In this document: in pieces, positions 9,209 to 64,000 of the stretch | Layout: every line of letters starts with the position of its first letter | Numbering within the stretch: the first letter of the stretch is position 1 | From: Tachypleus tridentatus | Lineage: Eukaryota | DNA length: 64,000 bases | Assembly (NCBI RefSeq): GCF_004210375.1 | Contig: NC_134831.1 | Location: 98,889,522-98,953,521, forward strand | Direction: 5' to 3' | Translations under genes and position numbers: made by a program | Notes under the pieces: model-generated | What the model was told of the DNA's origin: nothing | What the model saw: the letters and a program-made list of their open reading frames with translations, nothing else | Database searches by the model: none

Positions 9209-11520
9209 TTAACTTAATATTATATATATATTTATATACGAGTTTTCTTTAAGATGCCTTTAACTTAATATTATATATATATTTATATACGAGTTTTCTT
9301 CAAGATACCTTTAACTTAATATTATATATATATTTATATACGAGTTTTCTTCAAGATACCTTTAACTTAATATTATATATATATTTATATACGTTTTCTT
9401 CAAGATACCTTTAACTTAATATTATATATATATTTATATACGATTTTCTTCAAGATGTCTAACTTAATATTATATATATATTTATATACTAGTTTTCTTC
9501 AAGATACCTTTAACTTAATATTATATATATATTTATATACGAGTTTTCTTCAAGATGTCTTTAACTTAATATTATATATATATTTATATACGAGTTTTCT
9601 TCAAGATACCTTTAACTTAATATTATATATATATTTATATACTAGTTTTCTTCAAGATACCTTTAACTTAATATTATATATATATTTATATACGAGTTTT
9701 CTTCAAGATGTCTTTAACTTAATATTATATATATATTTATATACGATTTTCTTCAAGATGTCTAACTTAATATTATATATATATTTATATACTAGTTTTC
9801 TTCAAGATACCTTTAACTTAATATTATATATATATATTTATATACGAGTTTTCTTCAAGATACCTTTAACTTAATATTATATATATATTTATATACGAGT
9901 TTTCTTCAAGATACCTTTAACTTAATATTATATATATATTTATATACGAGTTTTCTTCAAGATACCTTTAACTTAATATTATATATATATATTTATATAC
10001 GAGTTTTCTTCAAGATGTCTTTAACTTAATATTATACATATATTTATATACGAGTTTTCTTCAAGATACCTTTAACTTAATATTATATATATATATTTAT
10101 ATATGAGTTTTCTTCAAGATACCTTTAACTTAATATTATATATATATATTTATATACTAGTTTTCTTCAAGATGTCTTTAACTTAATATTATATATATAT
10201 TTATATACGAGTTTTCTTCAAGATACCTTTAACTTAATATTATATATATATATTTATATACGAGTTTTCTTCAAGATACCTTTAACTTAATATTATATAT
10301 ATATATATTTATATACGAGTTTTCTTCAAGATACCTTTAACTTAATATTATATATATATATTTATATACGAGTTTTCTTCAAGATGCCTTTAACTTAATA
10401 TTATATATATATTTATATACGAGTTTTCTTCAAGATACCTTTAACTTAATATTATATATATATATTTATATACGAGTTTTCTTCAAGATACCTTTAACTT
10501 AATATTATATATATATATTTATATACGAGTTTTCTTCAAGATGCCTTTAACTTAATATTATACATATATTTATATACGAGTTTTCTTCAAGATACCTTTA
10601 ACTTAATATTATATATATATATTTATATACTAGTTTTCTTCAAGATGCCTTTAACTTAATATTATATATATATTTATATACGAGTTTTCTTCAAGATACC
10701 TTTAACTTAATATTATATATATATTTATATATAGTTTTCTTCAAGATACCTTTAACTTAAAGATATATATATATTTATATACGAGTTTTCTTCAAGATGC
10801 CTTTAACTTAATATTATATATATATATTTATATACGAGTTTTCTTCAAGATGCCTTTAACTTAATATTATATATATATTTATATACGAGTTTTCTTCAAG
10901 ATACCTTTAACTTAATATTATATATATATTTATATACGAGTTTTCTTCAAGATACCTTTAACTTAATATTATATATATATTTATATACGAGTTTTCTTCA
11001 AGATACCTTTAACTTAATATTATATATATATTTATATACGAGTTTTCTTCAAGATGCCTTTAACTTAATATTATATATATATTTATATACGAGTTTTCTT
11101 CAAGATGCCTTTAACTTAATATTATATATATATTTATATACGAGTTTTCTTCAAGATGCCTTTAACTTAATATTATATATATATTTATATACGAGTTTTC
11201 TTCAAGATGCCTTTAACTTAATATTATATATATATTTATATACGAGTTTTCTTCAAGATACCTTTAACTTAATATTATATATATATTTATATACGAGTTT
11301 TCTTCAAGATACCTTTAACTTAATATTATATATATATTTATATACGAGTTTTCTTCAAGATGCCTTTAACTTAATATTATATATATATTTATATACGAGT
11401 TTTCTTCAAGATGCCTTTAACTTAATATTATATATATATTTATATACGAGTTTTCTTCAAGATGCCTTTAACTTAATATTATATATATATTTATATACGA
11501 GTTTTCTTCAAGATGCCTTT
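9209..11520. repeat. Tandem minisatellite, about 51-bp unit (ctttaacttaatattatatatatatttatatacgagttttcttcaagata), about 45 copies.
   Basis: The period of about 51 bp is directly visible, with variants gatgcc, gatacc and gatgtc. The ORF 9455..9874 read through it is an artefact. Confidence 0.95.
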
Positions 11521-13469: not shown

Positions 13470-13796
13470 TTGATGTCCCAGAAGCTTTTGACATGGTGTG
13501 GCATGAGGTTTCAGATATAAACTACACAATATTAGCATTCTGACCCCATGTTTAACATGTTCTCACTTTTTATCACTAATGGCTGGAGTCCCTCAAGGAT
13601 CCATACTAAGCCCCATATTTTACAATGTATTTGTTAACAACATACCCCCCCACACACACACTTCTTTAATGTATAGATTAACCTTCCAATATGGAGATGA
13701 CATAGCTATGTGGAGTGCATCAAGTAACACTCATAATGTCACTTACAGAGTTCAAGCCTCACTTAATACAACATCAGAATGGTGTAATAAATAATG
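13470..13796 (+). mobile_element. Non-LTR retrotransposon RT fragment (pseudogene).
   Basis: Translations show ..FDVPEAFDMVWHE.. and ..AGVPQGSILSPIFYNVFVNNIP...QYGDDIAMWSAS, i.e. the RT motifs KAFDxVxH, GVPQGSxLSP and YADD, spread over two frames. Confidence 0.7.
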
Positions 13797-39556: not shown

Positions 39557-39743
39557 CTTAACTGATTCTTTAAAAAGAAAAAGAGAAAAATACTATTTAT
39601 AAAAACTCTTGTACAGCTACAAGAGCCATTAAGTTTATATCAGATACATCCAAAAAACAGTAAGTATTTTTAGATATAATCTTGTTTAACTCTAGAATTC
39701 AATTTAGTGATATTTGGCTAAAAAGTTAAGTGAAGAAAAATAC

Positions 39744-39970
39744 AGGGAACAAAACATGTCTATAGTCTCCTGAAGTAACACTAATAACATGGAACAAAAC
39801 ATGTCTATAGTCTCCTGAAGTAACACTAATAACATGGAACAAAACACGTCTATAGTCTCCTGAAGTAACACTAATAACATGGAACAAAACACGTCTATAG
39901 TCTCCTGAAGTAACACGAATAACATGGAACAAAACATGTCTATAGTCTCCTGAAGTAACACTAATAACCA
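39744..39970. repeat. Tandem repeat, 45-bp unit (ggaacaaaacatgtctatagtctcctgaagtaacactaataacat), 5 copies. It ends 3 bp from the MVP exon f donor site.
   Basis: Period 45 bp. The last unit runs into catacccttccgg, which is the gtatgg donor on the minus strand. Confidence 0.95.
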
Positions 39971-39973
39971 TAC

Positions 39974-44654: not shown

Positions 44655-46750
44655 CAATTTCTTATACAGTGGGCTTATGAAATAAGAGAGGCAGTTATAA
44701 TTAAAACATTCAACATACTTTAACCAATTTCTTATGCATACAGTGGGCTTATGAACTAAGAGACACAGTTATAATTAAAACATTCAACATACTTAACCAA
44801 TTTCTTATGCATACAGTGGGCTTATGAACTAAGAGACACAGTTATAATTAAAACATTCAACATACTTTAACCAATTTCTTATGCATACAGTGGGCTTATG
44901 AACTAAGAGACAGTTATATTAAAACATTCAACATACTTTAACCAATTTCTTATGCATACAGTGGGCTTATGAACTAAGAGACACAGTTATAATTAAAACA
45001 TTCAACATACTTAACCAGTTTCTTATGCATACAGTGGGCTTATGAAATAAGAGACACAGTTATAATTAAAACATTAAACATACTTTAACCAATTTCTTAT
45101 GCATACAGTGGGCTTATGAACTAAGAGACAGTTATATTAAAACATTCAACGTACTTTAACCAATTTCTTATGCATACAGTGGGCTTATGAACTAAGAGAC
45201 AGTTATAATTAAAACATTCAACATACTTTAACCAATTTCTTATACATACAGTGGGCTTATGAAATAAGAGACACAGTTATAATTAAAACATTCAACATAC
45301 TTAACCAATTTCTTATACATACAGTGGGCTTATGAAATAAGAGACACAGTTATAATTAAAACATTCAACATACTTAACCAATTTCTTATTCATACAGTGG
45401 GCTTATGAACTAAGAGACAGTTATATTAAAACATTCAACATACTTTAACCAATTTCTTATGCATACAGTGGGCTTATGAACTAAGAGACACAGTTATAAT
45501 TAAAACATTCAACATACTTAACCAGTTTCTTATGCATACAGTGGGCTTATGAACCAAGAGACACAGTTATAATTAAAACATTAAACATACTTTAACCAAT
45601 TTCTTATGCATACAGTGGGCTTATGAACTAAGAGACAGTTATATTAAAACATTCAACGTACTTTAACCAATTTCTTATGCATACAGTGGGCTTATGAACT
45701 AAGAGACAGTTATAATTAAAACATTCAACATACTTTAACCAATTTCTTATACATACAGTGGGCTTATGAAATAAGAGACACAGTTATAATTAAAACATTC
45801 AACATACTTAACCAATTTCTTATACATACAGTGGGCTTATGAAATAAGAGACACAGTTATAATTAAAACATTCAACATACTTAACCAATTTCTTATTCAT
45901 ACAGTGGGCTTATGAACTAAGAGACAGTTATATTAAAACATTCAACATACTTTAACCAATTTCTTATGCATACAGTGGGCTTATGAACTAAGAGACACAG
46001 TTATAATTAAAACATTCAACATACTTAACCAGTTTCTTATGCATACAGTGGGCTTATGAACCAAGAGACACAGTTATAATTAAAACATTAAACATACTTA
46101 ACCAATTTCTTATACATACAGTGGGCTTATGAAATAAGAGACACAGTTATAATTAAAACATTAAACATACTTTAACCAATTTCTTATGCATACAGTGGGC
46201 TTATGAACTAAGAGACAGTTATATTAAAACATTCAACATACTTTAACCAATTTCTTATGCATACAGTGGGCTTATGAACTAAGAGACACAGTTATAATTA
46301 AAACATTCAACATACTTAACCAATTTCTTATACATACAGTGGGCTTATGAAATAAGAGACACAGTTATAATTAAAACATTCAACATACTTAACCAATTTC
46401 TTATGCATACAGTGGGCTTATGAAATAAGAGACACAGTTATAATTAAAACATTCAACATACTTTAACCAATTTCTTATTCATACAGTGGGCTTATGAACT
46501 AAGAGACAGTTATATTAAAACATTCAACATACTTTAACCAATTTCTTATACATACAGTGGGCTTATGAAATAAGAGACACAGTTATAATTAAAACATTCA
46601 ACATACTTTAACCAATTTCTTATACATACAGTTGGCTTATGAACTAAGAGACACAGTTATAATTAAAACATTCAACATACTTTAACCAATTTCTTATACA
46701 TACAGTGGGCTTATGAAATAAGAGACAGTTATATTAAAACATTCAACATA
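44655..46750. repeat. Tandem minisatellite, 70 to 76-bp unit (ttaaccaatttcttatRcatacagtgggcttatgaaMtaagagacacagttataattaaaacattcaacatact), about 29 copies. It is contiguous with the 3' end of MVP exon d.
   Basis: On the minus strand each unit reads ...AAGAAATTGGTTAAAGTATGTTGAATG..., which is the last 15 nt of exon d plus its GTATGT donor. Confidence 0.95.
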
Positions 46751-46751
46751 C

Positions 46752-46988
46752 TTTAACCAATTTCTTTTGGCCTAGCTGAGGGGTCCCATCTTCATTAAGA
46801 GGATCAAGAATAACACAGTACTGACGCTTAGATAATGTTGTAATAGATACCACACCGACCACCTGTTCATACACACCCGGTATGTAAGTTTCTGTGTCAG
46901 TCATTTTGATCAACCACTCCTGTCCATTTCTTCTTTCGACTCCCAGCTCATCACAAAATGTACAAGTCGCCCTTACGTGTACTGCTTC
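46752..46988 (-). CDS. MVP: MVP exon d. Encodes [79 protein letters not shown].
   Basis: Acceptor tctgtttcag|GAAGCAG and donor GGTTAAA|gtatgt (phase 0). Matches human [79 protein letters not shown]. Confidence 0.9.
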
Positions 46989-48201: not shown

Positions 48202-48428
48202 CTTTTCTGTCAAAACATATGCATTAACAATATCCACAATTTCTTCATAAGCTCCAGGTAGATAAGCACCTATCTTTCTGACAAGCCACTCCTCTCCACA
48301 CACCCTTATCTTTCCACCTCTGTCTCTTGTCTCTGTACAAGCTCGAAGTTTTAAAGCCTGATTCGGTTTGATTACAAAAGCTCTCACTGTTTCCACAACT
48401 TCAACCTCCTTACAAGGAATGTATGTCC
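48202..48428 (-). CDS. MVP: MVP exon c. Encodes (G)[75 protein letters not shown].
   Basis: Acceptor ..ttaacatag|GGACATAC and donor GAAAAG|gtaact. Matches human [76 protein letters not shown]. Confidence 0.9.
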
Positions 48429-48430
48429 CT

Positions 48431-49452
48431 ATGTTAAAAAATAAATATCAAACATCCATTGGTGATGTATGTTCCTATATAACAGAATAAATATCAAACA
48501 TCCATTGGTTGCTGTATAACACTATGTTACAGAATAAATATCAAACATCCATTGGTTGATGTATAACACTATGTTACAGAATAAATATAAACATCCATTG
48601 GTTGATGTATAATACTATGTTACAGAATAAATATCAAACCTCCATTGGTTAATTATGTTCCTATGTTACAGAATAAATATCAAACGTTCATTGGTTGCTG
48701 TATAACACTATGTTAGAAAATAAATATCAAACATTCATTGGTTGCTATATAACACTACGTTACAAAATAAATATCAAACCTCCATTGGTTGATTATGTTC
48801 TTATGTTACAGAATAAATATCAAACATTCATTGGTTGCTGTATAACACTATGTTACAAAATAAATATCAAACATCCATTGGTTGATGTATAACACTATGT
48901 TAGAAAATAAATATCAAACCTCCATTGGTCACTGTATAACACTATGTTACAGAATAAATATCAAACCTCCATTGGTTGCTGTATAACACTATGTTACAAA
49001 ATAAATATCAAACATCCATTGGTTGCTGTATAACACTATGTTACAAAATAAATATCAAACATTCATTGGTTGCTGTATAACACTATGTTACAGAATAAAT
49101 ATCAAATATTCATTGGTTGCTGTATAACACTATGTTACAAAATAAATATCAAACCTCCATTGGTTGCTGTATAACACTATGTTAGAAAATAAATATAAAA
49201 CCTCCACTGGTTGCTGTATAATACTATGTTACAGAATAAATATCAAACATTCATTGGTTGCTGTATAACACTATGTTACAAAATAAATATCAAACCTCCA
49301 TTGGTTGATGTATAACACTATGTTACAGAATAAATATCAAACCTCCACTGGTTGCTGTATAACACTATGTTACAAAATAAACATCAAACATCCATTGATT
49401 GCTGTATAACACTATGTTACAGAATAAATATCAAACCTCCACTAGTTGCTGA
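48431..49452. repeat. Tandem minisatellite, 47-bp unit (tatgttacagaataaatatcaaacatccattggttgctgtataacac), about 21 copies. It starts immediately upstream (in transcript sense) of the MVP exon c acceptor.
   Basis: On the minus strand the units contain gatatttattctgtaacatag, which copies the polypyrimidine tract and AG acceptor. The second unit also copies the first 10 nt of the exon (GAACATACAT against GGACATACAT). Confidence 0.95.
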
Positions 49453-49573
49453 AACAGTTCTCAATGACAATATGATTACCTTTCAAATAAGATAATAAAC
49501 AGCCAGAGATTCTTAAGTTGTAAGTTGCAATTTCAAGATGGAAAGAGTGAATTTTTTTAGATAACATTTAAAT

Positions 49574-49860
49574 ACAGTGGAACCCCTCTAAGCGGCCACC
49601 CCTCAGATTCGGTCACCCCTTGAAAGTGGTCATTCAATCACAGTCCCTTTTTTTGTTTACATAATCCCTAATTATGTACAGTGGAACCTCTCTAAGCGGC
49701 CACCCCTCAGATTCGGTCACCCCTTGAAAGTGGTCATTCAATCACAGTCCCTTTTTTTGTTTACATAATCCCTAATTATGTACAGTGGAACCCCTCTAAT
49801 CAGGCCAGTTTGTCTCAGTCCCGAAGGTGGCTACTTTAGAGGGGTTCCACTGTAATAGCA
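49574..49860. repeat. 104-bp unit repeated about 2.7 times (acagtggaacccctctaagcggccacccctcagattcggtcaccccttgaaagtggtcattcaatcacagtccctttttttgtttacataatccctaattatgt). It ends in a perfect 17-bp inverted repeat hairpin at 49783..49852.
   Basis: Units start at 49574, 49678 and 49782. The inverted repeat is cagtggaacccctctaa ... ttagaggggttccactg. Confidence 0.85.
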
Positions 49861-51229: not shown

Positions 51230-51350
51230 CTGGGCCTTCAAACAGCCACTCATCACCAGCAACTTTCTTCTCGTATCTATCCTTGAAATCCCTGAGAGCT
51301 CGAAGCCTAAGTGCTGTGTTTGAAGGTACAACTTTTAAAGGTGTAATATC
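51230..51350 (-). CDS. MVP: MVP exon b. Encodes [40 protein letters not shown](G).
   Basis: Acceptor tttttttag|GATATT and donor CCAG|gttgta. The phase continues into exon c. Matches human DITPLQVVLPNTALHLKAL...[13 protein letters not shown]. Confidence 0.85.
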
Positions 51351-55470: not shown

Positions 55471-55825
55471 TTCTGATAAAAATTAGCAAAAAAATGATTT
55501 GCTATATGCAAACTAGACAGATATTGCATCTATGATGAACAGAGACCTAAACACCATTAAACTTGTACATCAGATATTTAAGATAAAATCAAATTTAAAA
55601 CAATAATAATAATAAAATAGTGCTAAAATACAACAGGCCACCTATGTTCTAGACTTATTAAAAAAATAAAATAAAATAAATAAATAAAAAACTTATGAAA
55701 GAACAATATAAATGGACATTGCCCTGAAAAGGGCCACATTTAAAGTTGTGCTATTACTTCAGCCATTTTGTGTTTACTCTAAATGTATTAATCAGGCCAT
55801 TCCAACTAAGAAATGGAAGGAGGAA

Positions 55826-58800
55826 GAGATCTATTGTACTTAACCCTCCTTGGTATACAAATATATATACCAAATACATAGAGAGAGAGGTCTAGTGTAC
55901 CTAACCCTCCTGGGTATACAAATGTATATACCAAATACAGAGAGAGAGAGGTCTAGTGTACCTGAGCCTCCTGGGTATACAAATATATATACCAAATATC
56001 TAGAGAGAGAGAGAGAGGTCTAGTGTACCTGATCCTCCTGGGTATACAAATATATATACTAAATACCTAGAGAGAGAGAGGTCTAGTGTACCTAACCCTC
56101 CTGGGTATACAAATATATATACCAAATACATAAAGAGAGAGAGAGGTCTAGTTTACCTGACCCTCCTGGGTATACAAACATATATACCCAAATACCTAGA
56201 GAGAGAGAGAGGTCTAGTGTACCTCACCCTCCTGGGTATACAAATATATATACCAAAATACCTAGAGAGAGAGAGGTCTAGTGTACCTGACACTCCTGGG
56301 TATACAAATATATATACCAGATACATAGAGAGAGAGGGGTCCAGTGTACCTGACCCTCCTGGGTATACAAATATATATACCAGATACATAGAGAGTGAAG
56401 TCCAATGTACCTGACCCTCCTGGGTATACAAATATATATACCCAAATACCTACAGAGAGAGAGACATCTAGTGTACCTGACCCTCATGGGTATACAAATA
56501 TATATACCAAAATACCTAGAGAGAGAGAGGTCTAGGATACCTGACCCTTCTGGGTATACAAATATATATACCAAAACACCTAGAGAGAGAGGGGTCTAGT
56601 GTACCTGACCCTCCTGGGTACACAAATATATATACCAAATACCTAGAGAAAGAGAGAGGGTCTAGTGTACTGACCCTCCTGGGTATACAAATATATATAC
56701 CAAATACCTAGAGAGAGAGTCTAGTGTACCTGACCCTCCTGGGTATACAAATATATATACCAAATACCTAGAGAGAGAGAGTCTAGTGTACCTGACCCTC
56801 CTGGGTATACAAATATATATACCAAAATACCTAGAGAGAGAGAGAAGTCTAGTGTACCTGACCCTCCTGGGTATACAAATATATATACCAAAATACCTAG
56901 AGAGAGAGGTCTAGTGTACCTGACCCTCCTGGGTACACAAATATATATACCAAATACCTAGAGAGAGAGGAGGTCTAGTGTACCTGACCCCCTCCTGGGT
57001 ATACAAATATATATACCAAAACACCTAGAGAGAGAGAGAGAGGTCTAGTGTACCTGACCCTCCTGGGTATACAAATATATATACCAAATACCTAGAGAGA
57101 GAGGTCTAGTGTACCTGACCCTCCTGGGTATACAAATATATATACCAAATACCTAAGAGAGAGAGAGGTCTAGTGTACCTGACCCTCCTGGGTATACAAA
57201 TATATATACCAAATACCTAGAGAGAGAGAGGTCTAGTGTACCTGACCCTCCTGGGTATACAAATATATATACCAAATACCTAGAGAGAGAGGTCTAGTGT
57301 ACCTGACCCTCCTGGGTATACAAATATATATACCAAATACCTAGAGAGAGAGAGAGGTCTAGTGTACCTGACCCTCCTGGGTATACAAATATATATACCC
57401 AAATACCTAGAGAGAGAGAGAGTCTAGTGTACCTGACCCTCCTGGGTATACAAATATATATACCAAATACCTAGAGAGAGAGAGGTCTAGTGTACCTGAC
57501 CCTCCTGGGTATACAAATATATATACCAAATACCTAGAGAGAGAGAGAGGTCTAGTGTACCTGACCCTCCTGGGTATACAAATATATATACCAAATACCT
57601 AGAGAGAGAGAGGTCTAGTGTACCTGACCCTCCTGGGTATACAAATATATATACCAAATACCTAGAGAGAGAGAGGTCTAGTGTACCTGACCCTCCTGGG
57701 TATACAAATATATATACCAAATACCTAGAGAGAGAGAGAGAGAGTCTAGTGTACCTGACCCTCCTGGGTATACAAATATATATACCAAATACCTAGAGAG
57801 AGAGAGGTCTAGTGTACCTGACCCTCCTGGGTATACAAATATATATACCAAATACCTAGAGAGAGAGAGGTCTAGTGTACCTGACCCTCCTGGGTATACA
57901 AATATATATACCAAATACCTAGAGAGAGAGAGTCTAGTGTACCTGACCCTCCTGGGTATACAAATATATATACCAAATACCTAGAGAGAGAGAGAGGTCT
58001 AGTGTACCTGACCCTCCTGGGTATACAAATATATATACCAAATACCTAGAGAGAGAGAGAGTCTAGTGTACCTGACCCTCCTGGGTATACAAATATATAT
58101 ACCAAATACCTAGAGAGAGAGAGAGTCTAGTGTACCTGACCCTCCTGGGTATACAAATATATATACCAAATACCTAGAGAGAGAGAGAGGTCTAGTGTAC
58201 CTGACCCTCCTGGGTATACAAATATATATACCAAATACCTAGAGAGAGAGAGAGTCTAGTGTACCTGACCCTCCTGGGTATACAAATATATATACCAAAA
58301 TACCTAGAGAGAGAGAGGTCTAGTGTACCTGACCCTCCTGGGTATACAAATATATATACCAAATACCTAGAGAGAGAGGGTCTAGTGTACCTGACCCTCC
58401 TGGGTATACAAATATATATACCAAATACCTAGAGAGAGAGAGGTCTAGTGTACCTGACCCTCCTGGGTATACAAATATATATACCAAATACCTAGAGAGA
58501 GAGAGGTCTAGTGTACCTGACCCTCCTGGGTATACAAATATATATACCAAATACCTAGAGAGAGAGAGAGGTCTAGTGTACCTGACCCTCCTGGGTATAC
58601 AAATATATATACCAAATACCTAGAGAGAGAGAGGTCTAGTGTACCTGACCCTCCTGGGTATACAAATATATATACCATAAAACCTAGAGAGAGAGAGAGA
58701 GTCTAGTGTACCTGACCCTCCTGGGTATACAAATATATATACCAAAATACCTAGAGAGAGAGAGAGGTCTAGTGTACCTGACCCTCCTGGGTATACAAAT

Positions 58801-61800
58801 ATATATACCAAAATACCGAGAGAGAGAGAGAGGTCTAGTGTACCTGACCCTCCTGGGTATACAAATATATATACCAAAATACCTAGAGAGAGAGAGAGTC
58901 TAGTGTACCTGACCCTCCTGGGTATACAAATATATATACCAAATACCTAGAGAGAGAGAGGTCTAGTGTACCTGACCCTCCTGGGTATACAAATATATAT
59001 ACCAAATACCTAGAGAGTGAGAGGTCTAGTGTACCTGAGCCTCCTGGGTATACAAATATATATACCCAAATACCTAGAGAGAGAGAGGTCTAGTGTACCT
59101 GACCCTCCTGGGTATACAAATATATATACCAAATACCTAGAGAGAGAGAGAGGTCTAGTGTACCTGACCCTCCTGGGTATACAAATATATATACCAAATA
59201 CCTAGAGAGAGAGAGAGGTCTAGTGTACCTGACCCTCCTGGGTATACAAATATATATACCAAATACCTAGAGAGAGAGAGAGGTCTAGTGTACCTGACTC
59301 TCCTGAGTATACAAATATATATACCAAATACCTAGAGAGAGAGAGAGGTCTAGTGTACCTGACCCTCATGGGTATACAAATATATATACCAAATACATAG
59401 AGAGAGAGAAGTCTAGTGTACCTGACCCTCCTGGGTATACAAATATATATACCAAAAACCTAGAGAGAGAGAGTCTAGTGTACCCAACCCTCCTGGGTAT
59501 ACAAATATATATACCAAAATACCTAGAGAGAGAGGTCTAGTGTACCTGACCCTCCTGGGTATACAAATATATATACCAAATACCTAGAGAGAGAGAGGTC
59601 AAGTGTAGCTGACCCTCCTGGGTATACAAATATATATACCAAATACCTAGAGAGAGAGAGTCTAGTGTACCTGACCCTCCTGGGTATACAAATATATATA
59701 CCAAATACCTAGAGAGAGAGGTCAAGTGTACCTGACCCTCCTGGGTATACAAATATATATACCAAATACCTAGAGAGAGAGAGAGGTCTAGTGTACCTGA
59801 CCCTCCTGGGTATACAAATATATATACCAAATACCTAGAGAGAGAGAGAGAGAGGTCTAGTGTACCTGACTCTCCTGAGTATACAAATATATATACCAAA
59901 TACCTAGAGAGAGAGAGAGAGTCTAGTGTACCTGACCCTCCTGGGTATACAAATATATATACCAAATACCTAGAGAGAGAGAGGTCTAGTGTACCTGACC
60001 CTCCTGGGTATACAAATATATATACCAAAAACCTAGAGAGAGAGAGAGGTCTAGTGTACCTGACCCTCCTGGGTATACAAATATATATACCAAATACCTA
60101 GAGAGAGAGAGAGGTCTAGTGTACCTGACCCTCCTGGGTATACAAATATATATACCAAAATACCTAGAGAGAGAGAGGTCTAGTGTACCCGACCCTCCTG
60201 GGTATACAAATATATATACCAAATACCTAGAGAGAGAGAGGTCTAGTGTACCTGACCCTCCTGGGTATACAAATATATATACCAAATACCTAGAGAGAGA
60301 GAGAGTCTAGTGTACCTGACCCTCCTGGGTATACAAATAAATATACCAAAATACCTAGAGAGAGAGAGGTCTAGTGTACCTGACCCTCCTGGGTATACAA
60401 ATATATATATCCAAATACCTAGAGAGAGAGAGAGGTCTAGTGTACCTAACCCTCCTGGGTAGACAAATATATATACCAAAATACCTAGAGAGAGAGAGAG
60501 AGGTCTGGTGTACCTGACCCTCCTGGGTATACAAATATATATACCAAATACCTAGAGAGAGAGGTCTAGTGTACCTGACCCTCCTGGGTATACAAATATA
60601 TATACCAAATACCTAGACAGAGAGAGGTCTAGTGTACCTGACCCTCCTGGGTATACAAATATATATACCAAATACCTAGAGAGAGAGAGGTCTAGTGTAC
60701 CTGACCCTCCTGGGTATACAAATATATATACCAAATACCTAGAGAGAGAGATCAAGTGTACCTGACCCTCCTGGGTATACAAATATATATACCAAATACC
60801 TAGAGAGAGAGAGAGGTCTAGTGTACCTGACCCTCCTGGGTATACAAATATATATACCAAAAACCTAGAGAGAGAGAGAGTCTAGTGTACCCACCCTCCT
60901 GGGTATACAAATATATATACCAAAATACCGATAGAGAGAGAGAGGTCTAGTGTACCCGACCCTCCTGGGTATACAAATATATATACCAAAATACCGATAG
61001 AGAGAGAGAGGTCTAGTGTACCCGACCCTCCTGGGTATACAAATATATATACCAAATACCTAGAGAGAGAGGCCAAGTGTAGCTGACCCTCCTGGGTATA
61101 CAAATATATATACCCAAATACCTAGAGAGAGAGAGAGGTCTAGTGTACCTGACCCTCCTGGGTATACAAATATATATACCAAATACCTAGAGAGAGAGGT
61201 CTAGTGTACCTGACCCTCCTGGGTATACAAATATATATACCAAATACCTAGAGAGAGAGAGAGGTCTAGTGTACCTGACCCTCCTGGGTATACAAATATA
61301 TATACCAAATACCTAGAGAGAGAGAGAGGTCTAGTGTACCTGACCCTCCTGGGTATACAAATATATATACCAAATACCTAGAGAGAGAGAGAGGTCTAGT
61401 GTACCTGACCCTCCTGGGTATACAAATATATATACCAAATACCTAGAGAGAGAGAGGTCTAGTGTACCTGACCCTCCTGGGTATACAAATATATATACCA
61501 AATACCTAGAGAGAGAGAGAGGTCTAGTGTACCTGACCCTCCTGGGTATACAAATATATATACCAAATACCTAGAGAGAGAGAGAGTCTAGTGTACCTGA
61601 CCCTCCTGGGTATACAAATATATATACCAAAAACCTAGAGAGAGAGAGAGGTCTAGTGTACCTGACCCTCCTGGGTATACAAATATATATACCAAAATAC
61701 CAATAGAGAGAGAGAGGTCTAGTGTACCTGACCCTCCTGGGTATACAAATATATATACCAAAATACCTAGAGAGAGAGAGAGTCTAGTGTACCTGACCCT

Positions 61801-64000
61801 CCTGGGTATACAAATATATATACCAAAATACCGAGAGAGAGAGAGAGGTCTAGTGTACCTGACCCTCCTGGGTATACAAATATATATACCAAATACCTAG
61901 AGAGAGAGGTCTAGTGTACCTGACCCTCCTGGGTATACAAATATATATACCAAATACCTAGAGAGAGAGAGGTCTAGTGTACCTGACCCTCCTGGGTATA
62001 CAAATATATATACCAAATACCTAGAGAGAGAGAGGTCTAGTGTACCTGACCCTCCTGGGTATACAAATATATATACCAAATACCTAGAGAGAGAGAGGTC
62101 TAGTGTACCTGACCCTCCTGGGTATACAAATATATATACCAAATACCTAGAGAGAGAGAGGTCTAGTGTACCTGACCCTCCTGGGTATACAAATATATAT
62201 ACCAAATACCTAGAGAGAGAGAGGTCTAGTGTACCTGACCCTCCTGGGTATACAAATATATATACCAAATACCTAGAGAGAGAGAGGTCTAGTGTACCTG
62301 ACCCTCCTGGGTATACAAATATATATACCAAATACCTAGAGAGAGAGAGGGTCTAGTGTACCTGACCCTCCTGGGTATACAAATATATATACCAAAATAC
62401 CTAGAGAGAGAGAGAGTCTAGTGTACCTGACCCTCCTGGGTATACAAATATATATACCAAATACCTAGAGAGAGAGGTCTAGTGTACCTGACCCTCCTGG
62501 GTATACAAATATATATACCAAAATACCTAGAGAGAGAGAGGTCTAGTGTACCTGACCCTCCTGGGTATACAAATATATATACCAAATACCTAGAGAGAGA
62601 GGTCTAGTGTACCTGACCCTCCTGGGTATACAAATATATATACCAAATACCTAGAGAGAGAGAGTCTAGTGTACCTGACCCTCCTGGGTATACAAATATA
62701 TATACCAAATACCTAGAGAGAGAGAGAGGTCTAGTGTACCTGACCCTCCTGGGTATACAAATATATATACCAAATACCTAGAGAGAGAGAGGTCTAGTGT
62801 ACCTGACCCTCCTGGGTATACAAATATATATACCAAATACCTAGAGAGAGAGAGAGTCTAGTGTACCTGACCCTCCTGGGTATACAAATATATATACCAA
62901 AAACCTAGAGAGAGAGAGAGAGAGGGTCTAGTGTACCTGACCCTCCTGGGTATACAAATATATATACCAAAATACCGAGAGAGAGAGAGGTCTAGTGTAC
63001 CTGACCCTCCTGGGTATACAAATATATATACCAAATACCTAGAGAGAGAGAGGTCTAGTGTACCTGACCCTCCTGGGTATACAAATATATATACCAAATA
63101 CCTAGAGAGAGAGAGGTCTAGTGTACCTGACCCTCCTGGGTATACAAATATATATACCAAATACCTAGAGAGAGAGGTCAAGTGTAGCTGACCCTCCTTG
63201 GTATACATATATATATACCAAATACCTAGAGAGAGAGAGGTCTAGTGTACCTGACCCTCCTGGGTATACAAATATATATACCAAATACCTAGAGAGAGAG
63301 AGGAGAGAGGTCTAGTGTACCTGACCCTCCTGGGTATACAAATATATATACCAAATACCTAGAGAGAGAGAGAGGTCTAGTGTACCCGACCCTCCTGGGT
63401 ATACAAATATATATACCAAATACCTAGAGAGAGAGAGAGTCTAGTGTACCTGACCCTCCTGGGTATACAAATATATATACCAAATACCTAGAGAGAGAGA
63501 GAGAGGTCTAGTGTACCCGACCCTCCTGGGTATACAAATATATATACCAAAATACCAATAGAGAGAGAGAGGTCTAGTGTACCCGACCCTCCTGGGTATA
63601 CAAATATATATACCAAAATACCGATAGAGAGAGAGAGGTCTAGTGTACCCGACCCTCCTGGGTATACAAATATATATACCAAAATACCGATAGAGAGAGA
63701 GAGGTCTAGTGTACCTGACCCTCCTGGGTATACAAATATATATACCAAATACCTAGAGAGAGAGAGTCTAGTGTACCTGACCCTCCTGGGTATACAAATA
63801 TATATACCAAATACCTAGAGAGAGAGAGGTCTAGTGTACCTGACCCTCCTGGGTATACAAATATATATACCAAATACCTAGAGAGAGAGAGGTCTAGTGT
63901 ACCTGACCCTCCTGGGTATACAAATATATATACCAAATACCTAGAGAGAGAGAGGTCTAGTGTACCTGACCCTCCTGGGTATACAAATATATATATACCA
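55826..64000. repeat. Satellite array, about 63-bp unit (ggtctagtgtacctgaccctcctgggtatacaaatatatataccaaatacctagagagagaga), about 130 copies. It extends beyond the window end.
   Basis: The period of 61 to 66 bp varies with the embedded (GA)n tract. Each unit contains the near-palindrome ggtatacaaatatatatacc. All ORFs 56153..63936 are artefacts. Confidence 0.97.

What the first reader, a model, noticed from the sequence alone, without database searches (positions are those of the whole stretch)
48415..49452. 47-bp minisatellite made of copies of the MVP exon c acceptor region
The real 3' splice site reads (minus strand) ..ccaatggatgtttgatatttattttttaacatag|GGACATACATTCC. The adjacent array units read ..ccaatggatgtttgatatttattctgtaacatag|tgttatacagcaacc. 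The unit nearest the exon even copies the exon start (..ttatatag|GAACATACATCACCAATGG). So about 21 tandem copies of a polypyrimidine tract plus AG acceptor, with a branch-point-like context, lie immediately upstream of the true acceptor. Together with the donor-copy array at exon d this suggests a recurrent process at this gene: replication slippage or unequal exchange seeded at exon-intron junctions.
Basis: seen in the sequence. Interest (0 to 1): 0.8.

Follow-up and report, generated by a model that had tools for sequence, protein, structure and literature searches.

The report
Splice-acceptor minisatellite in horseshoe-crab MVP intron
The last 45-47 bases of one intron of the horseshoe-crab major vault protein gene, including its 3' splice signal, were copied about 21 times in tandem just upstream of the real splice site; this kind of repeat is already known from amphioxus ("mirages") and the human F7 gene and is most likely a tolerated by-product, not a new mechanism.

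Summary
A 47-bp array (48429-49451, minus strand) has 21 intronic units. A 22nd unit is the authentic acceptor of MVP exon c.

- **Source.** The window is Tachypleus tridentatus. My spliced model is identical to NCBI's MVP-like protein.
- **Origin.** The Limulus orthologue and a paralogue each carry one copy of the unit at this intron end. The array is therefore an in-place amplification, probably lineage-specific.
In 18 of 21 units the 13 nt after the AG are not exon copies (P=0.95). They match the intron flank just upstream of the array (P=0.00015). The main unit is thus the last 45-47 nt of the intron, ending exactly at the AG. Only three units carry about 10 nt of exon start (P=0.001 for the nearest unit).
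- **Decoy sites.** Twenty units keep polypyrimidine tract plus AG in register. All 51 upstream AGs give a stop within 2-27 codons.
- **No junction-specific process needed.** Arrays fill 39% of the window. Three of 19 intronic arrays touch a splice junction, against 1.3 expected (P=0.13).

This is a new member of a known kind: amphioxus "mirage" minisatellites and the human F7 IVS7 repeat. Splicing and length polymorphism could not be tested.

The parts
48429..49451 (-). 47-bp minisatellite: 21 intronic units plus a partial leading CAGCAA. It ends exactly at the acceptor AG of exon c.
   Evidence: TRF; segmentation; pattern scan with 21 hits against 0 expected; mean pairwise unit identity 88.9%
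48416..48462 (-). Junction unit (22nd copy): the last 34 nt of intron b-c (CCAATGGATGTTTGATATTTATTTTTTAACATAG) plus the first 13 nt of exon c (GGACATACATTCC).
   Evidence: 32 of 34 matches to the consensus in the intronic part
48429..48430 (-). Authentic 3' splice-site AG of exon c. It is the only AG in the region that keeps the MVP reading frame open. It uniquely combines an uninterrupted T6 run with G at +1.
   Evidence: junction EGPG|TYIPCK is present in the NCBI protein P0062
48447..48451 (-). Branch-point-like TTGAT (fits yUnAy), with its A 19 nt upstream of the AG. It is present in 19 of the 21 upstream units. This is inferred, not shown.
   Evidence: read from the unit sequences; the consensus is from general knowledge of metazoan branch sites
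48202..48428 (-). MVP exon c (227 nt, Vault repeat domain).
   Evidence: tblastn; spliced model; Pfam; 100% identity to P0062
48463..48508 (-). Unit 21, type B. After the AG it carries GGAACATACAT, an exon-derived copy of the exon c start, then CA from the ordinary tail.
   Evidence: P=0.001 against the exon start; not significant against the flank
48649..48694 (-). Unit 17, type B (GGAACATAATTAA after the AG).
   Evidence: P=0.02 against the exon start
48789..48834 (-). Unit 14, type B (ATAA|GAACATAATCAA). The AG at the homologous position is lost or shifted by 1 nt.
   Evidence: P=0.07
49446..49456 (-). Unique upstream flank TGTTTCAGCAA. It is the source of the 13-nt 'tail' (TGTTATACAGCAA) found in 18 units and is orthologous to Limulus AGTATCAGCAA.
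   Evidence: P=0.00015
51230..51350 (-). MVP exon b. Its donor is spliced to the exon c acceptor (phase 1).
44664..46766 (-). Companion array: 73 bp x about 29 units. Each unit holds a copy of the last 15 nt of exon d (AAGAAATTGGTTAAA) followed by the donor sequence. The copies are not all exact: about 12 units read TAAGAAATTGGTTAA, having lost one A, three carry a T>C change, and one donor is GTACGT. The array overlaps exon d by 15 nt.
   Evidence: single copy in Limulus
39742..39971 (-). Companion array: 45 bp x 5. Its periodicity begins at intron position +3 after exon f. The units read CCATG where the donor reads GTATG, so the GT is not copied.
   Evidence: single copy in Limulus

Best explanation
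The array is a tandem amplification, made in place, of the last 45-47 nt of MVP intron b-c. It arose in the horseshoe-crab lineage leading to Tachypleus tridentatus.

The ancestral intron end was: flank TGTTTCAGCAA, then CTAATGGA..TTTGATATTTATTTTGTAACATAG, then the exon. This segment was duplicated head to tail, with the 3' breakpoint exactly at the intron's last base. It was then expanded by replication slippage or unequal sister-chromatid exchange to 21 extra copies. I infer these steps; I did not observe them.

A later template switch or unequal exchange between the junction copy and an upstream unit carried about 10 nt of exon start into the array. The crossover lay in the 5-nt ATACA that the exon start and the repeat tail share in the same register. 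This produced the type B tail (exon GGACATACA followed by the tail's CAA), which now sits in three units.

Each upstream unit still holds a branch-like TTGAT, a pyrimidine tract and an AG, so the pre-mRNA carries about 20 decoy acceptors. The spliceosome uses the exon-adjacent copy. The likely reasons are that this copy alone is followed by exon c and its 5' splice site (exon definition), and that it has the best tract (T6) with G at +1. Any use of a decoy gives a premature stop, so the transcript would probably be removed by nonsense-mediated decay.

Overall the array is most likely a neutral or slightly deleterious by-product of a very high local rate of minisatellite birth.
For: - **Identity of gene and species.** My 807-aa spliced model is 100% identical to NCBI 'major vault protein-like [Tachypleus tridentatus]' and matches the Pfam Vault domains.
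- **Single-copy ancestral state.** The Limulus orthologue L003 reads ...CAGCAA|CTAATGGAATTTGATATTTATTTTGTAACATAG|GGACGTACATTCC with no gap of Ns in that intron. The paralogue L004 is also single copy. MAFFT places one insertion of about 988 bp in Tachypleus.
- **The Limulus assembly can represent arrays.** L003 holds other arrays of up to 0.9 kb.
- **Intron sizes agree once arrays are removed.** Intron c-d is 747 nt without its array against about 761 in Limulus. Intron d-e is 254 nt plus one unit against about 304.
- **Other arrays arose the same way.** Six Tachypleus arrays have single-copy counterparts at orthologous Limulus intron positions.
- **Origins of the two tail types.**
- **Not a dispersed element.** The unit occurs nowhere else in the window.
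- **Decoy consequences.** All 51 upstream AGs give a stop within 2-27 codons.
- **Age.** Unit divergence of 11% is about half of the 22% divergence between Limulus and Tachypleus in the neutral flank.
- **Precedents for silent duplicated splice sites.** Amphioxus mirages (PMC3087553; PMC3902484) and human F7 IVS7 (PMC1557585).
Against: - No RNA data were available. Use of the authentic site rests on the reading frame, conservation and NCBI's annotated protein.
- The Limulus assembly is an older, gapped one. Collapse of an array cannot be strictly excluded.
- No other Asian horseshoe crab could be examined, so the array is dated only as 'after the split from Limulus'.
- The ordinary tail has ATACA where the flank has T-CA, a 2-nt difference. 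ATACA sits in the same register as in the exon. A founding duplication that did span the boundary therefore cannot be ruled out.
- Neutrality is assumed, not shown.
Confidence: 0.8

Rival explanations
1. This is a 'mirage' in the strict sense. The founding duplication spanned the intron/exon boundary (34 nt of intron plus about 11 nt of exon, the type B unit). The now-dominant type A tail arose later, by a second event that brought in the upstream flank, and then took over by unequal exchange.
For: - Three units carry exon-derived sequence.
- ATACA lies in the same register in the exon and in the ordinary tail.
- The neighbouring exon d array is an unambiguous boundary-spanning case.
- Amphioxus BflGb6 is an acceptor-side precedent.
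Against: - 18 of 21 tails match the flank and not the exon.
- The periodicity found by TRF starts in the flank (CAGCAA) and stops exactly at the AG.
- The type B units are a minority, confined to the exon-proximal third of the array.
- Both histories need two events, so this cannot be settled from one haplotype.
Confidence: 0.15
2. The array is functional. The block of about 20 decoy 3' splice sites would bind U2AF/SF1 and tune the rate of exon c splicing. It could alternatively divert a regulated fraction of transcripts into nonsense-mediated decay, setting MVP output.
For: - Units retain a branch-like motif, pyrimidine tract and AG in 20 of 21 copies.
- The intronic head of the unit is better conserved between Limulus and Tachypleus (88-91%) than the flank (78%). 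That is expected for the single authentic site in any case.
Against: - The array is absent from Limulus and from the paralogue.
- The same gene holds 18 other intronic arrays with unrelated units, and most do not touch splice sites.
- Units diverge freely (89% identity), including in the pyrimidine tract and at the AG (unit 14).
- There is no expression evidence.
Confidence: 0.04
3. Minisatellites in this genome nucleate preferentially at exon-intron junctions through a mutational process tied to splicing or transcription.
For: Three of 19 intronic arrays in one gene touch or overlap a splice junction. Two breakpoints lie within 0-2 nt of the boundary.
Against: - The uniform-placement null expects 1.3, giving P(>=3)=0.13.
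- The other 16 arrays sit 92 nt to several kb from junctions.
- At exon f and exon d the repeated segment is flanked by short direct repeats, which is typical of ordinary slippage.
Confidence: 0.08
4. The array is an assembly artefact or was delivered by a transposon.
For: Tandem arrays are a known source of assembly errors.
Against: - Units differ from each other in a structured way (89% identity, three subtypes, 46- and 47-nt variants). This is unlike a polishing or duplication artefact.
- The flanks are collinear with Limulus.
- The unit is homologous to resident single-copy intron sequence and is not found elsewhere in the window.
- Rfam finds no matches.
Confidence: 0.02

Closest known systems
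Amphioxus 'mirage' minisatellites: Adh3 (Canestro et al. 2002, cited in PMC3087553), globin genes BflGb6 and BflGb9, PGBD5 and troponin C (PMC3902484)
   Same: Both are minisatellite-like tandem repeats sitting on an intron/exon boundary whose copies contain AG or GT splice signals. The authentic exon-adjacent site is used. BflGb6 is likewise an acceptor-side case (3' end of the intron plus 5' part of the exon). The exon d array in this window fits the definition fully.
   Different: This is a chelicerate, not a cephalochordate. The array has 21 extra copies, against 3-6 in BflGb6, and a shorter unit (47 bp against 150-160 bp). The dominant unit of this array contains no exon sequence, and only 3 of 21 units do. 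Instability and normal splicing were shown experimentally in amphioxus but could not be tested here.
Human F7 intron 7 37-bp VNTR (PMC1557585)
   Same: The terminal repeat unit contains the authentic splice site, so the real site is followed by a row of pseudo-sites that stay silent. It has served as a natural model for how one site is chosen among repeated ones.
   Different: F7 repeats the 5' (donor) site 5-9 times with identical sequence. Here the 3' (acceptor) site is repeated about 20 times with small differences in the pyrimidine tract and at +1. The 5'-to-3' scanning shown for F7 would not by itself explain choosing the last acceptor copy.
Intron gain by tandem duplication across an AG|GT proto-splice site (Rogers model, as discussed in PMC3087553)
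   Same: Tandem duplication that includes splice signals is tolerated because the extra copy is spliced out.
   Different: No new intron was created here. An existing intron was lengthened by about 1 kb.
NAGNAG and other short-distance tandem acceptors (from general knowledge; not looked up)
   Same: Duplicated acceptor AGs compete for one exon.
   Different: Those lie 3-12 nt apart and give in-frame isoforms. Here the copies are 47 nt apart, each has its own tract and branch-like site, and every one of them leads to a premature stop.

Membership tests
Mirage minisatellite (tandem repeat spanning an exon-intron boundary, as described in PMC3087553) | Head-to-tail minisatellite-like array located at an intron/exon junction | tested here: met
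   TRF gives 47 bp x 21.9 copies ending at the AG. The junction unit is in register with the array.
Mirage minisatellite (tandem repeat spanning an exon-intron boundary, as described in PMC3087553) | The repeat unit comprises both intronic and exonic sequence | tested here: inconclusive
   Only units 14, 17 and 21 carry about 10 nt derived from the exon (P=0.001 to 0.07). The tails of the other 18 units match the upstream intron flank (P=0.00015) and not the exon (P=0.95). The neighbouring exon d array meets this feature, with a copy of the last 15 nt of exon d in each of about 29 units, about 12 of them missing one A.
Mirage minisatellite (tandem repeat spanning an exon-intron boundary, as described in PMC3087553) | Many of the copies carry AG/GT splice signals | tested here: met
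   20 of 21 upstream units keep the AG at the homologous position, together with the pyrimidine tract.
Mirage minisatellite (tandem repeat spanning an exon-intron boundary, as described in PMC3087553) | Regular splicing is not disturbed | not testable with these tools
   There is only indirect support. The NCBI protein P0062 uses the authentic b/c junction, and only that AG keeps the frame open. No RNA reads were available.
Mirage minisatellite (tandem repeat spanning an exon-intron boundary, as described in PMC3087553) | Length instability or polymorphism between haplotypes | not testable with these tools
   Only one haplotype and one assembly were available (P0062 is recorded on a single contig).
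F7-IVS7-type splice-site VNTR (PMC1557585) | The terminal repeat element contains the authentic splice site, which is flanked by pseudo-sites | tested here: met
   Here it is the acceptor side instead of the donor side.
F7-IVS7-type splice-site VNTR (PMC1557585) | [quoted passage not shown] | tested here: not met
   The authentic site has TTTTTT and AG|G. The units have TTCTGT, TTTTGT or TTTTCT, and mostly AG|T. In the exon d array 28 of the 29 copies keep the donor hexamer GTATGT.
Transposon-borne or dispersed minisatellite | The unit is found at other loci, or is flanked by element termini and absent from the orthologous site | tested here: not met
   There are no copies elsewhere in the 64-kb window. 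One copy is present at the orthologous Limulus site. The rest of the genome was not searched.

The most novel reading that the evidence does not exclude
The Tachypleus lineage may have undergone a burst of intronic minisatellite formation: 39% of this window against roughly 1.5-5% of the two Limulus MVP loci. Under this reading, breakpoints fall preferentially at splice junctions. The resulting rows of 20-29 near-identical decoy splice sites would be actively managed, or even exploited, by the splicing machinery. That would make this gene a natural test bed for how a 3' splice site is chosen among many equivalent copies.
Probability: 0.1. Interest if true: 0.6.

Novelty: new member of a known kind. 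Interest (0 to 1): 0.3.

Why it matters
Tandem repeats that duplicate splice sites have so far been described mainly in amphioxus and in single human genes. Finding an acceptor-side array of 21 extra copies and a donor-side array of about 29 copies in one chelicerate gene has two consequences:

- It shows the phenomenon is not peculiar to cephalochordates.
- It offers a natural construct for asking how the spliceosome picks one site among many near-equal ones.

The practical point is for annotation. Such arrays create dozens of plausible false acceptors and donors, and here they inflate introns two- to eight-fold. The Limulus comparison also gives an unusually clean before-and-after picture of how a minisatellite is born.

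Tried and rejected
- **First protein search.** The 75-aa exon c peptide returned only ORF fragments and one shark hit. The locus fetched from the best of these was an unrelated compact-genome animal and did not help.
- **Guesses at the source.** From GC content and repeat density I considered a mollusc or amphioxus. The full-length search identified Tachypleus tridentatus instead.
- **Human MVP probe.** The gene model was then validated independently.
- **Rfam.** The scan of the window found nothing.
- **Canestro et al. 2002.** The original 'mirage' paper is not held, so its content is cited second-hand from PMC3087553 and PMC3902484.
- **Literature searches.** I found no report of minisatellites or boundary repeats in horseshoe crabs or molluscs.
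- **Exon copy in every unit.** Rejected.
- **Junction-specific enrichment.** Not significant.
- **Higher-order repeat.** There is only a weak rise in identity at a spacing of 3 units (91.1% against about 89%). I did not pursue it.

Full report
**What is there.** TRF finds a 47-bp array at 48429-49451 with 21.9 copies and 89% matches. Read on the minus strand, which is the sense strand of the gene, it resolves into 21 units of 46-47 nt (49445..48463). A 22nd unit in the same register follows (48462..48416). That unit consists of the last 34 nt of the intron (CCAATGGATGTTTGATATTTATTTTTTAACATAG) plus the first 13 nt of an exon (GGACATACATTCC). The intronic part of the junction unit matches the other units at 29-33 of 34 positions. 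A 26-nt core pattern hits 21 times, only inside the array, with none expected by chance.

**Gene and organism.**
- A tblastn probe located 13 MVP exons on the minus strand between about 53.4 and 16.2 kb.
- Joining these exons at canonical GT-AG sites gives an open 807-aa frame with Vault, Vault_2/3/4 and MVP_shoulder domains.
- The model is 100% identical over its whole length to NCBI 'major vault protein-like [Tachypleus tridentatus]'. The next hits are Limulus polyphemus at 89% and 81%.
- The annotated protein contains the exact junctions b/c (EGPG|TYIPCK), d/e and f/g.
- Exon c is 48428..48202, and its acceptor AG is at 48430-48429.

**Ancestral state.** I fetched the Limulus orthologue (L003) and a paralogue (L004).
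- In L003 the end of the same intron reads ...GAGTACAGTATCAGCAA CTAATGGAATTTGATATTTATTTTGTAACATAG|GGACGTACATTCC. That is one copy of the unit, abutting the exon. L004 is also single copy.
- MAFFT aligns the Limulus sequence to the Tachypleus upstream flank plus first unit, and then to the exon, with one gap of about 988 bp between them.
- The Limulus intron has no N-gap there, and L003 represents other arrays of up to 0.9 kb. Assembly collapse is therefore unlikely, though not excluded.
- Six Tachypleus arrays have single-copy counterparts at orthologous Limulus intron positions.
- Intron lengths agree once arrays are subtracted. Intron c-d is 747 nt against about 761. Intron d-e is 254 nt plus one unit against about 304.
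- The arrays, including this one, therefore arose in place from resident intron sequence after the split from Limulus.
- Unit divergence (11%) is about half the divergence between Limulus and Tachypleus in the neutral flank (22%).

**What the unit is made of.** This does not hold for most units.
- The common tail, TGTTATACAGCAA (18 units), is no more like the exon start than random sequence (P=0.95). It matches the unique flank just upstream of the array, TGTTTCAGCAA at 49456..49446 (P=0.00015). It also matches the Limulus counterpart of that flank (P=0.008).
- The dominant unit is therefore the last 45-47 nt of the intron, purely intronic, with its 3' end exactly at the intron's last base.
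- Three units (48508..48463, 48694..48649, 48834..48789) have a different tail, GGAACATA(C)AT.., which does match the exon start. The match is 10 of 10 with one indel for the nearest unit (P=0.001, 0.02 and 0.07) and does not match the flank.
- This type B tail reads as exon GGACATACA followed by the ordinary tail's (T)CAA.
- The exon and the ordinary tail share ATACA in the same register. I infer a template switch or unequal exchange within this microhomology, between the junction copy and an upstream unit. That would keep the 47-bp period and explain the chimera.
- One detail is unresolved. The ordinary tail has ATACA where the flank has T-CA. A founding duplication that spanned the boundary therefore cannot be excluded (rival 1).

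**Consequences for splicing (inferred).**
- Twenty of the 21 upstream units keep the AG in register, preceded by a pyrimidine tract. Nineteen also keep a TTGAT that fits the loose metazoan branch consensus, 19 nt upstream of the AG.
- I spliced the exon b donor in silico to each of the 51 upstream AGs. Every one gives a stop within 2-27 codons. Only 48428 keeps the frame.
- The authentic copy is the only one that combines an uninterrupted T6 run with G at +1.
- It is also the only copy followed by exon c and its donor. This favours it under exon definition, which I take from general knowledge.
- No RNA data were available. Silence of the decoys is inferred from the annotation and from precedent.

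**Is there a junction-specific process?**
- The window is extraordinarily rich in minisatellites. There are 23 arrays covering 24.9 kb, or 39% of the window, and 19 of them lie in MVP introns.
- Three arrays touch a splice junction. The first is the array under study.
- The second is the 73-bp array at exon d. Its roughly 29 units each hold a copy of AAGAAATTGGTTAAA followed by the donor, and it overlaps the exon by 15 nt. The copies are near-exact, not identical: about 12 lack one A of the exon-derived part, three have a T>C change, and one donor reads GTACGT.
- The third is a 45-bp array that begins at intron position +3 after exon f and does not copy the GT.
- I tested this against a null model. 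Founding duplications of the observed unit length fall uniformly among tolerated positions, meaning fully intronic or boundary-spanning. The model expects 1.32 such arrays, and P(>=3)=0.13.
- The recurrence is thus explained by the sheer number of arrays. Duplications that include a splice site are also tolerated, because one intact site remains.

**Comparison with what is known.**
- Tandem repeats on exon-intron boundaries were named 'mirages' in amphioxus Adh3. They were later found in the amphioxus globin genes BflGb6 (acceptor side, 3-6 units of 150-160 bp) and BflGb9, in PGBD5 and in troponin C. Splicing was reported to be normal in these cases (PMC3087553; PMC3902484).
- The human F7 intron 7 VNTR starts on the exon 7 donor. 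It provides 5-9 identical silent pseudo-donors, and the most upstream site is chosen by oriented scanning (PMC1557585).
- The present array works like these. The exon d array is a full member of the mirage class.
- The exon c array meets the location and splice-signal criteria. It meets the 'unit contains exon sequence' criterion only in 3 of 21 units.
- I found no report of such arrays in horseshoe crabs.

**Verdict.** The feature is real and well defined, and it is explained as an in-place amplification of the acceptor-proximal intron end. It is a new member of a known kind and of modest interest. Its main value is as a natural splice-site-choice construct and as a warning for genome annotation. 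Splicing behaviour, polymorphism and a genome-wide test of enrichment remain to be done.

Noticed in passing
window 55825-63995: A 63-bp satellite with at least 128 copies over at least 8.2 kb runs off the window end. The first 51 residues of the annotated MVP protein are not encoded in the window. This array therefore lies inside the intron upstream of exon A and is not intergenic.
   Followed up: partly
window 1-64000, all TRF arrays: Twenty-three distinct minisatellite arrays (periods 25-104 bp, 2-128 copies) cover 39% of the window. The two Limulus MVP loci show about 5% and 1.5%. This suggests either a Tachypleus-specific proliferation or a difference in assembly technology.
   Followed up: partly
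window 44664-46766 and L003 12610-12700: The exon d donor array ends in a truncated unit, AAGAAATTG|AAATACTG. In Limulus the single-copy segment is flanked by an imperfect direct repeat: AAGAAACTG in the exon and AAGGAAGTG about 60 nt downstream. Such a repeat is a likely substrate for the founding slippage.
   Followed up: partly
window 44664-46766: TRF also reports periods of 218 and 291 bp for the 73-bp array. Unit lengths cycle through 70/71, 73 and 74 nt, which indicates higher-order repeats of 3-4 units.
   Followed up: no
window 39742-39971 and L003 15300-15345: The 45-bp array after exon f starts 2 nt inside the intron. Its units end in CCATGTTATTAGTG, which resembles the intron start GTATGGTTATTAGTG. 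Limulus has one copy flanked by GTTATTAGT and GTTTATTTAAT.
   Followed up: partly
window 49573-49807: A 104-bp unit is present 2.2 times (TACAGTGGAACCCCTCTAAGCGGCCACCCC...). It is relatively GC-rich for this region and may be a SINE- or MITE-like element and not a local duplication. No Limulus counterpart was found at this locus.
   Followed up: no
window 13579-13794 (+): An ORF encoding GVPQGSILSP...YGDDIAMW resembles a reverse-transcriptase fragment of a non-LTR retrotransposon. It lies downstream of MVP.
   Followed up: no
window 9209-11520: A very AT-rich 51-bp array with 45 copies (22% GC) lies downstream of the last mapped MVP exon. It produces a spurious 139-aa repetitive ORF.
   Followed up: no
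window 48429-49451: Units 3, 12, 18 and 19 carry ATACAT, as in the exon, where the other ordinary tails carry ATACAG. This may be a trace of partial conversion from the exon copy.
   Followed up: no
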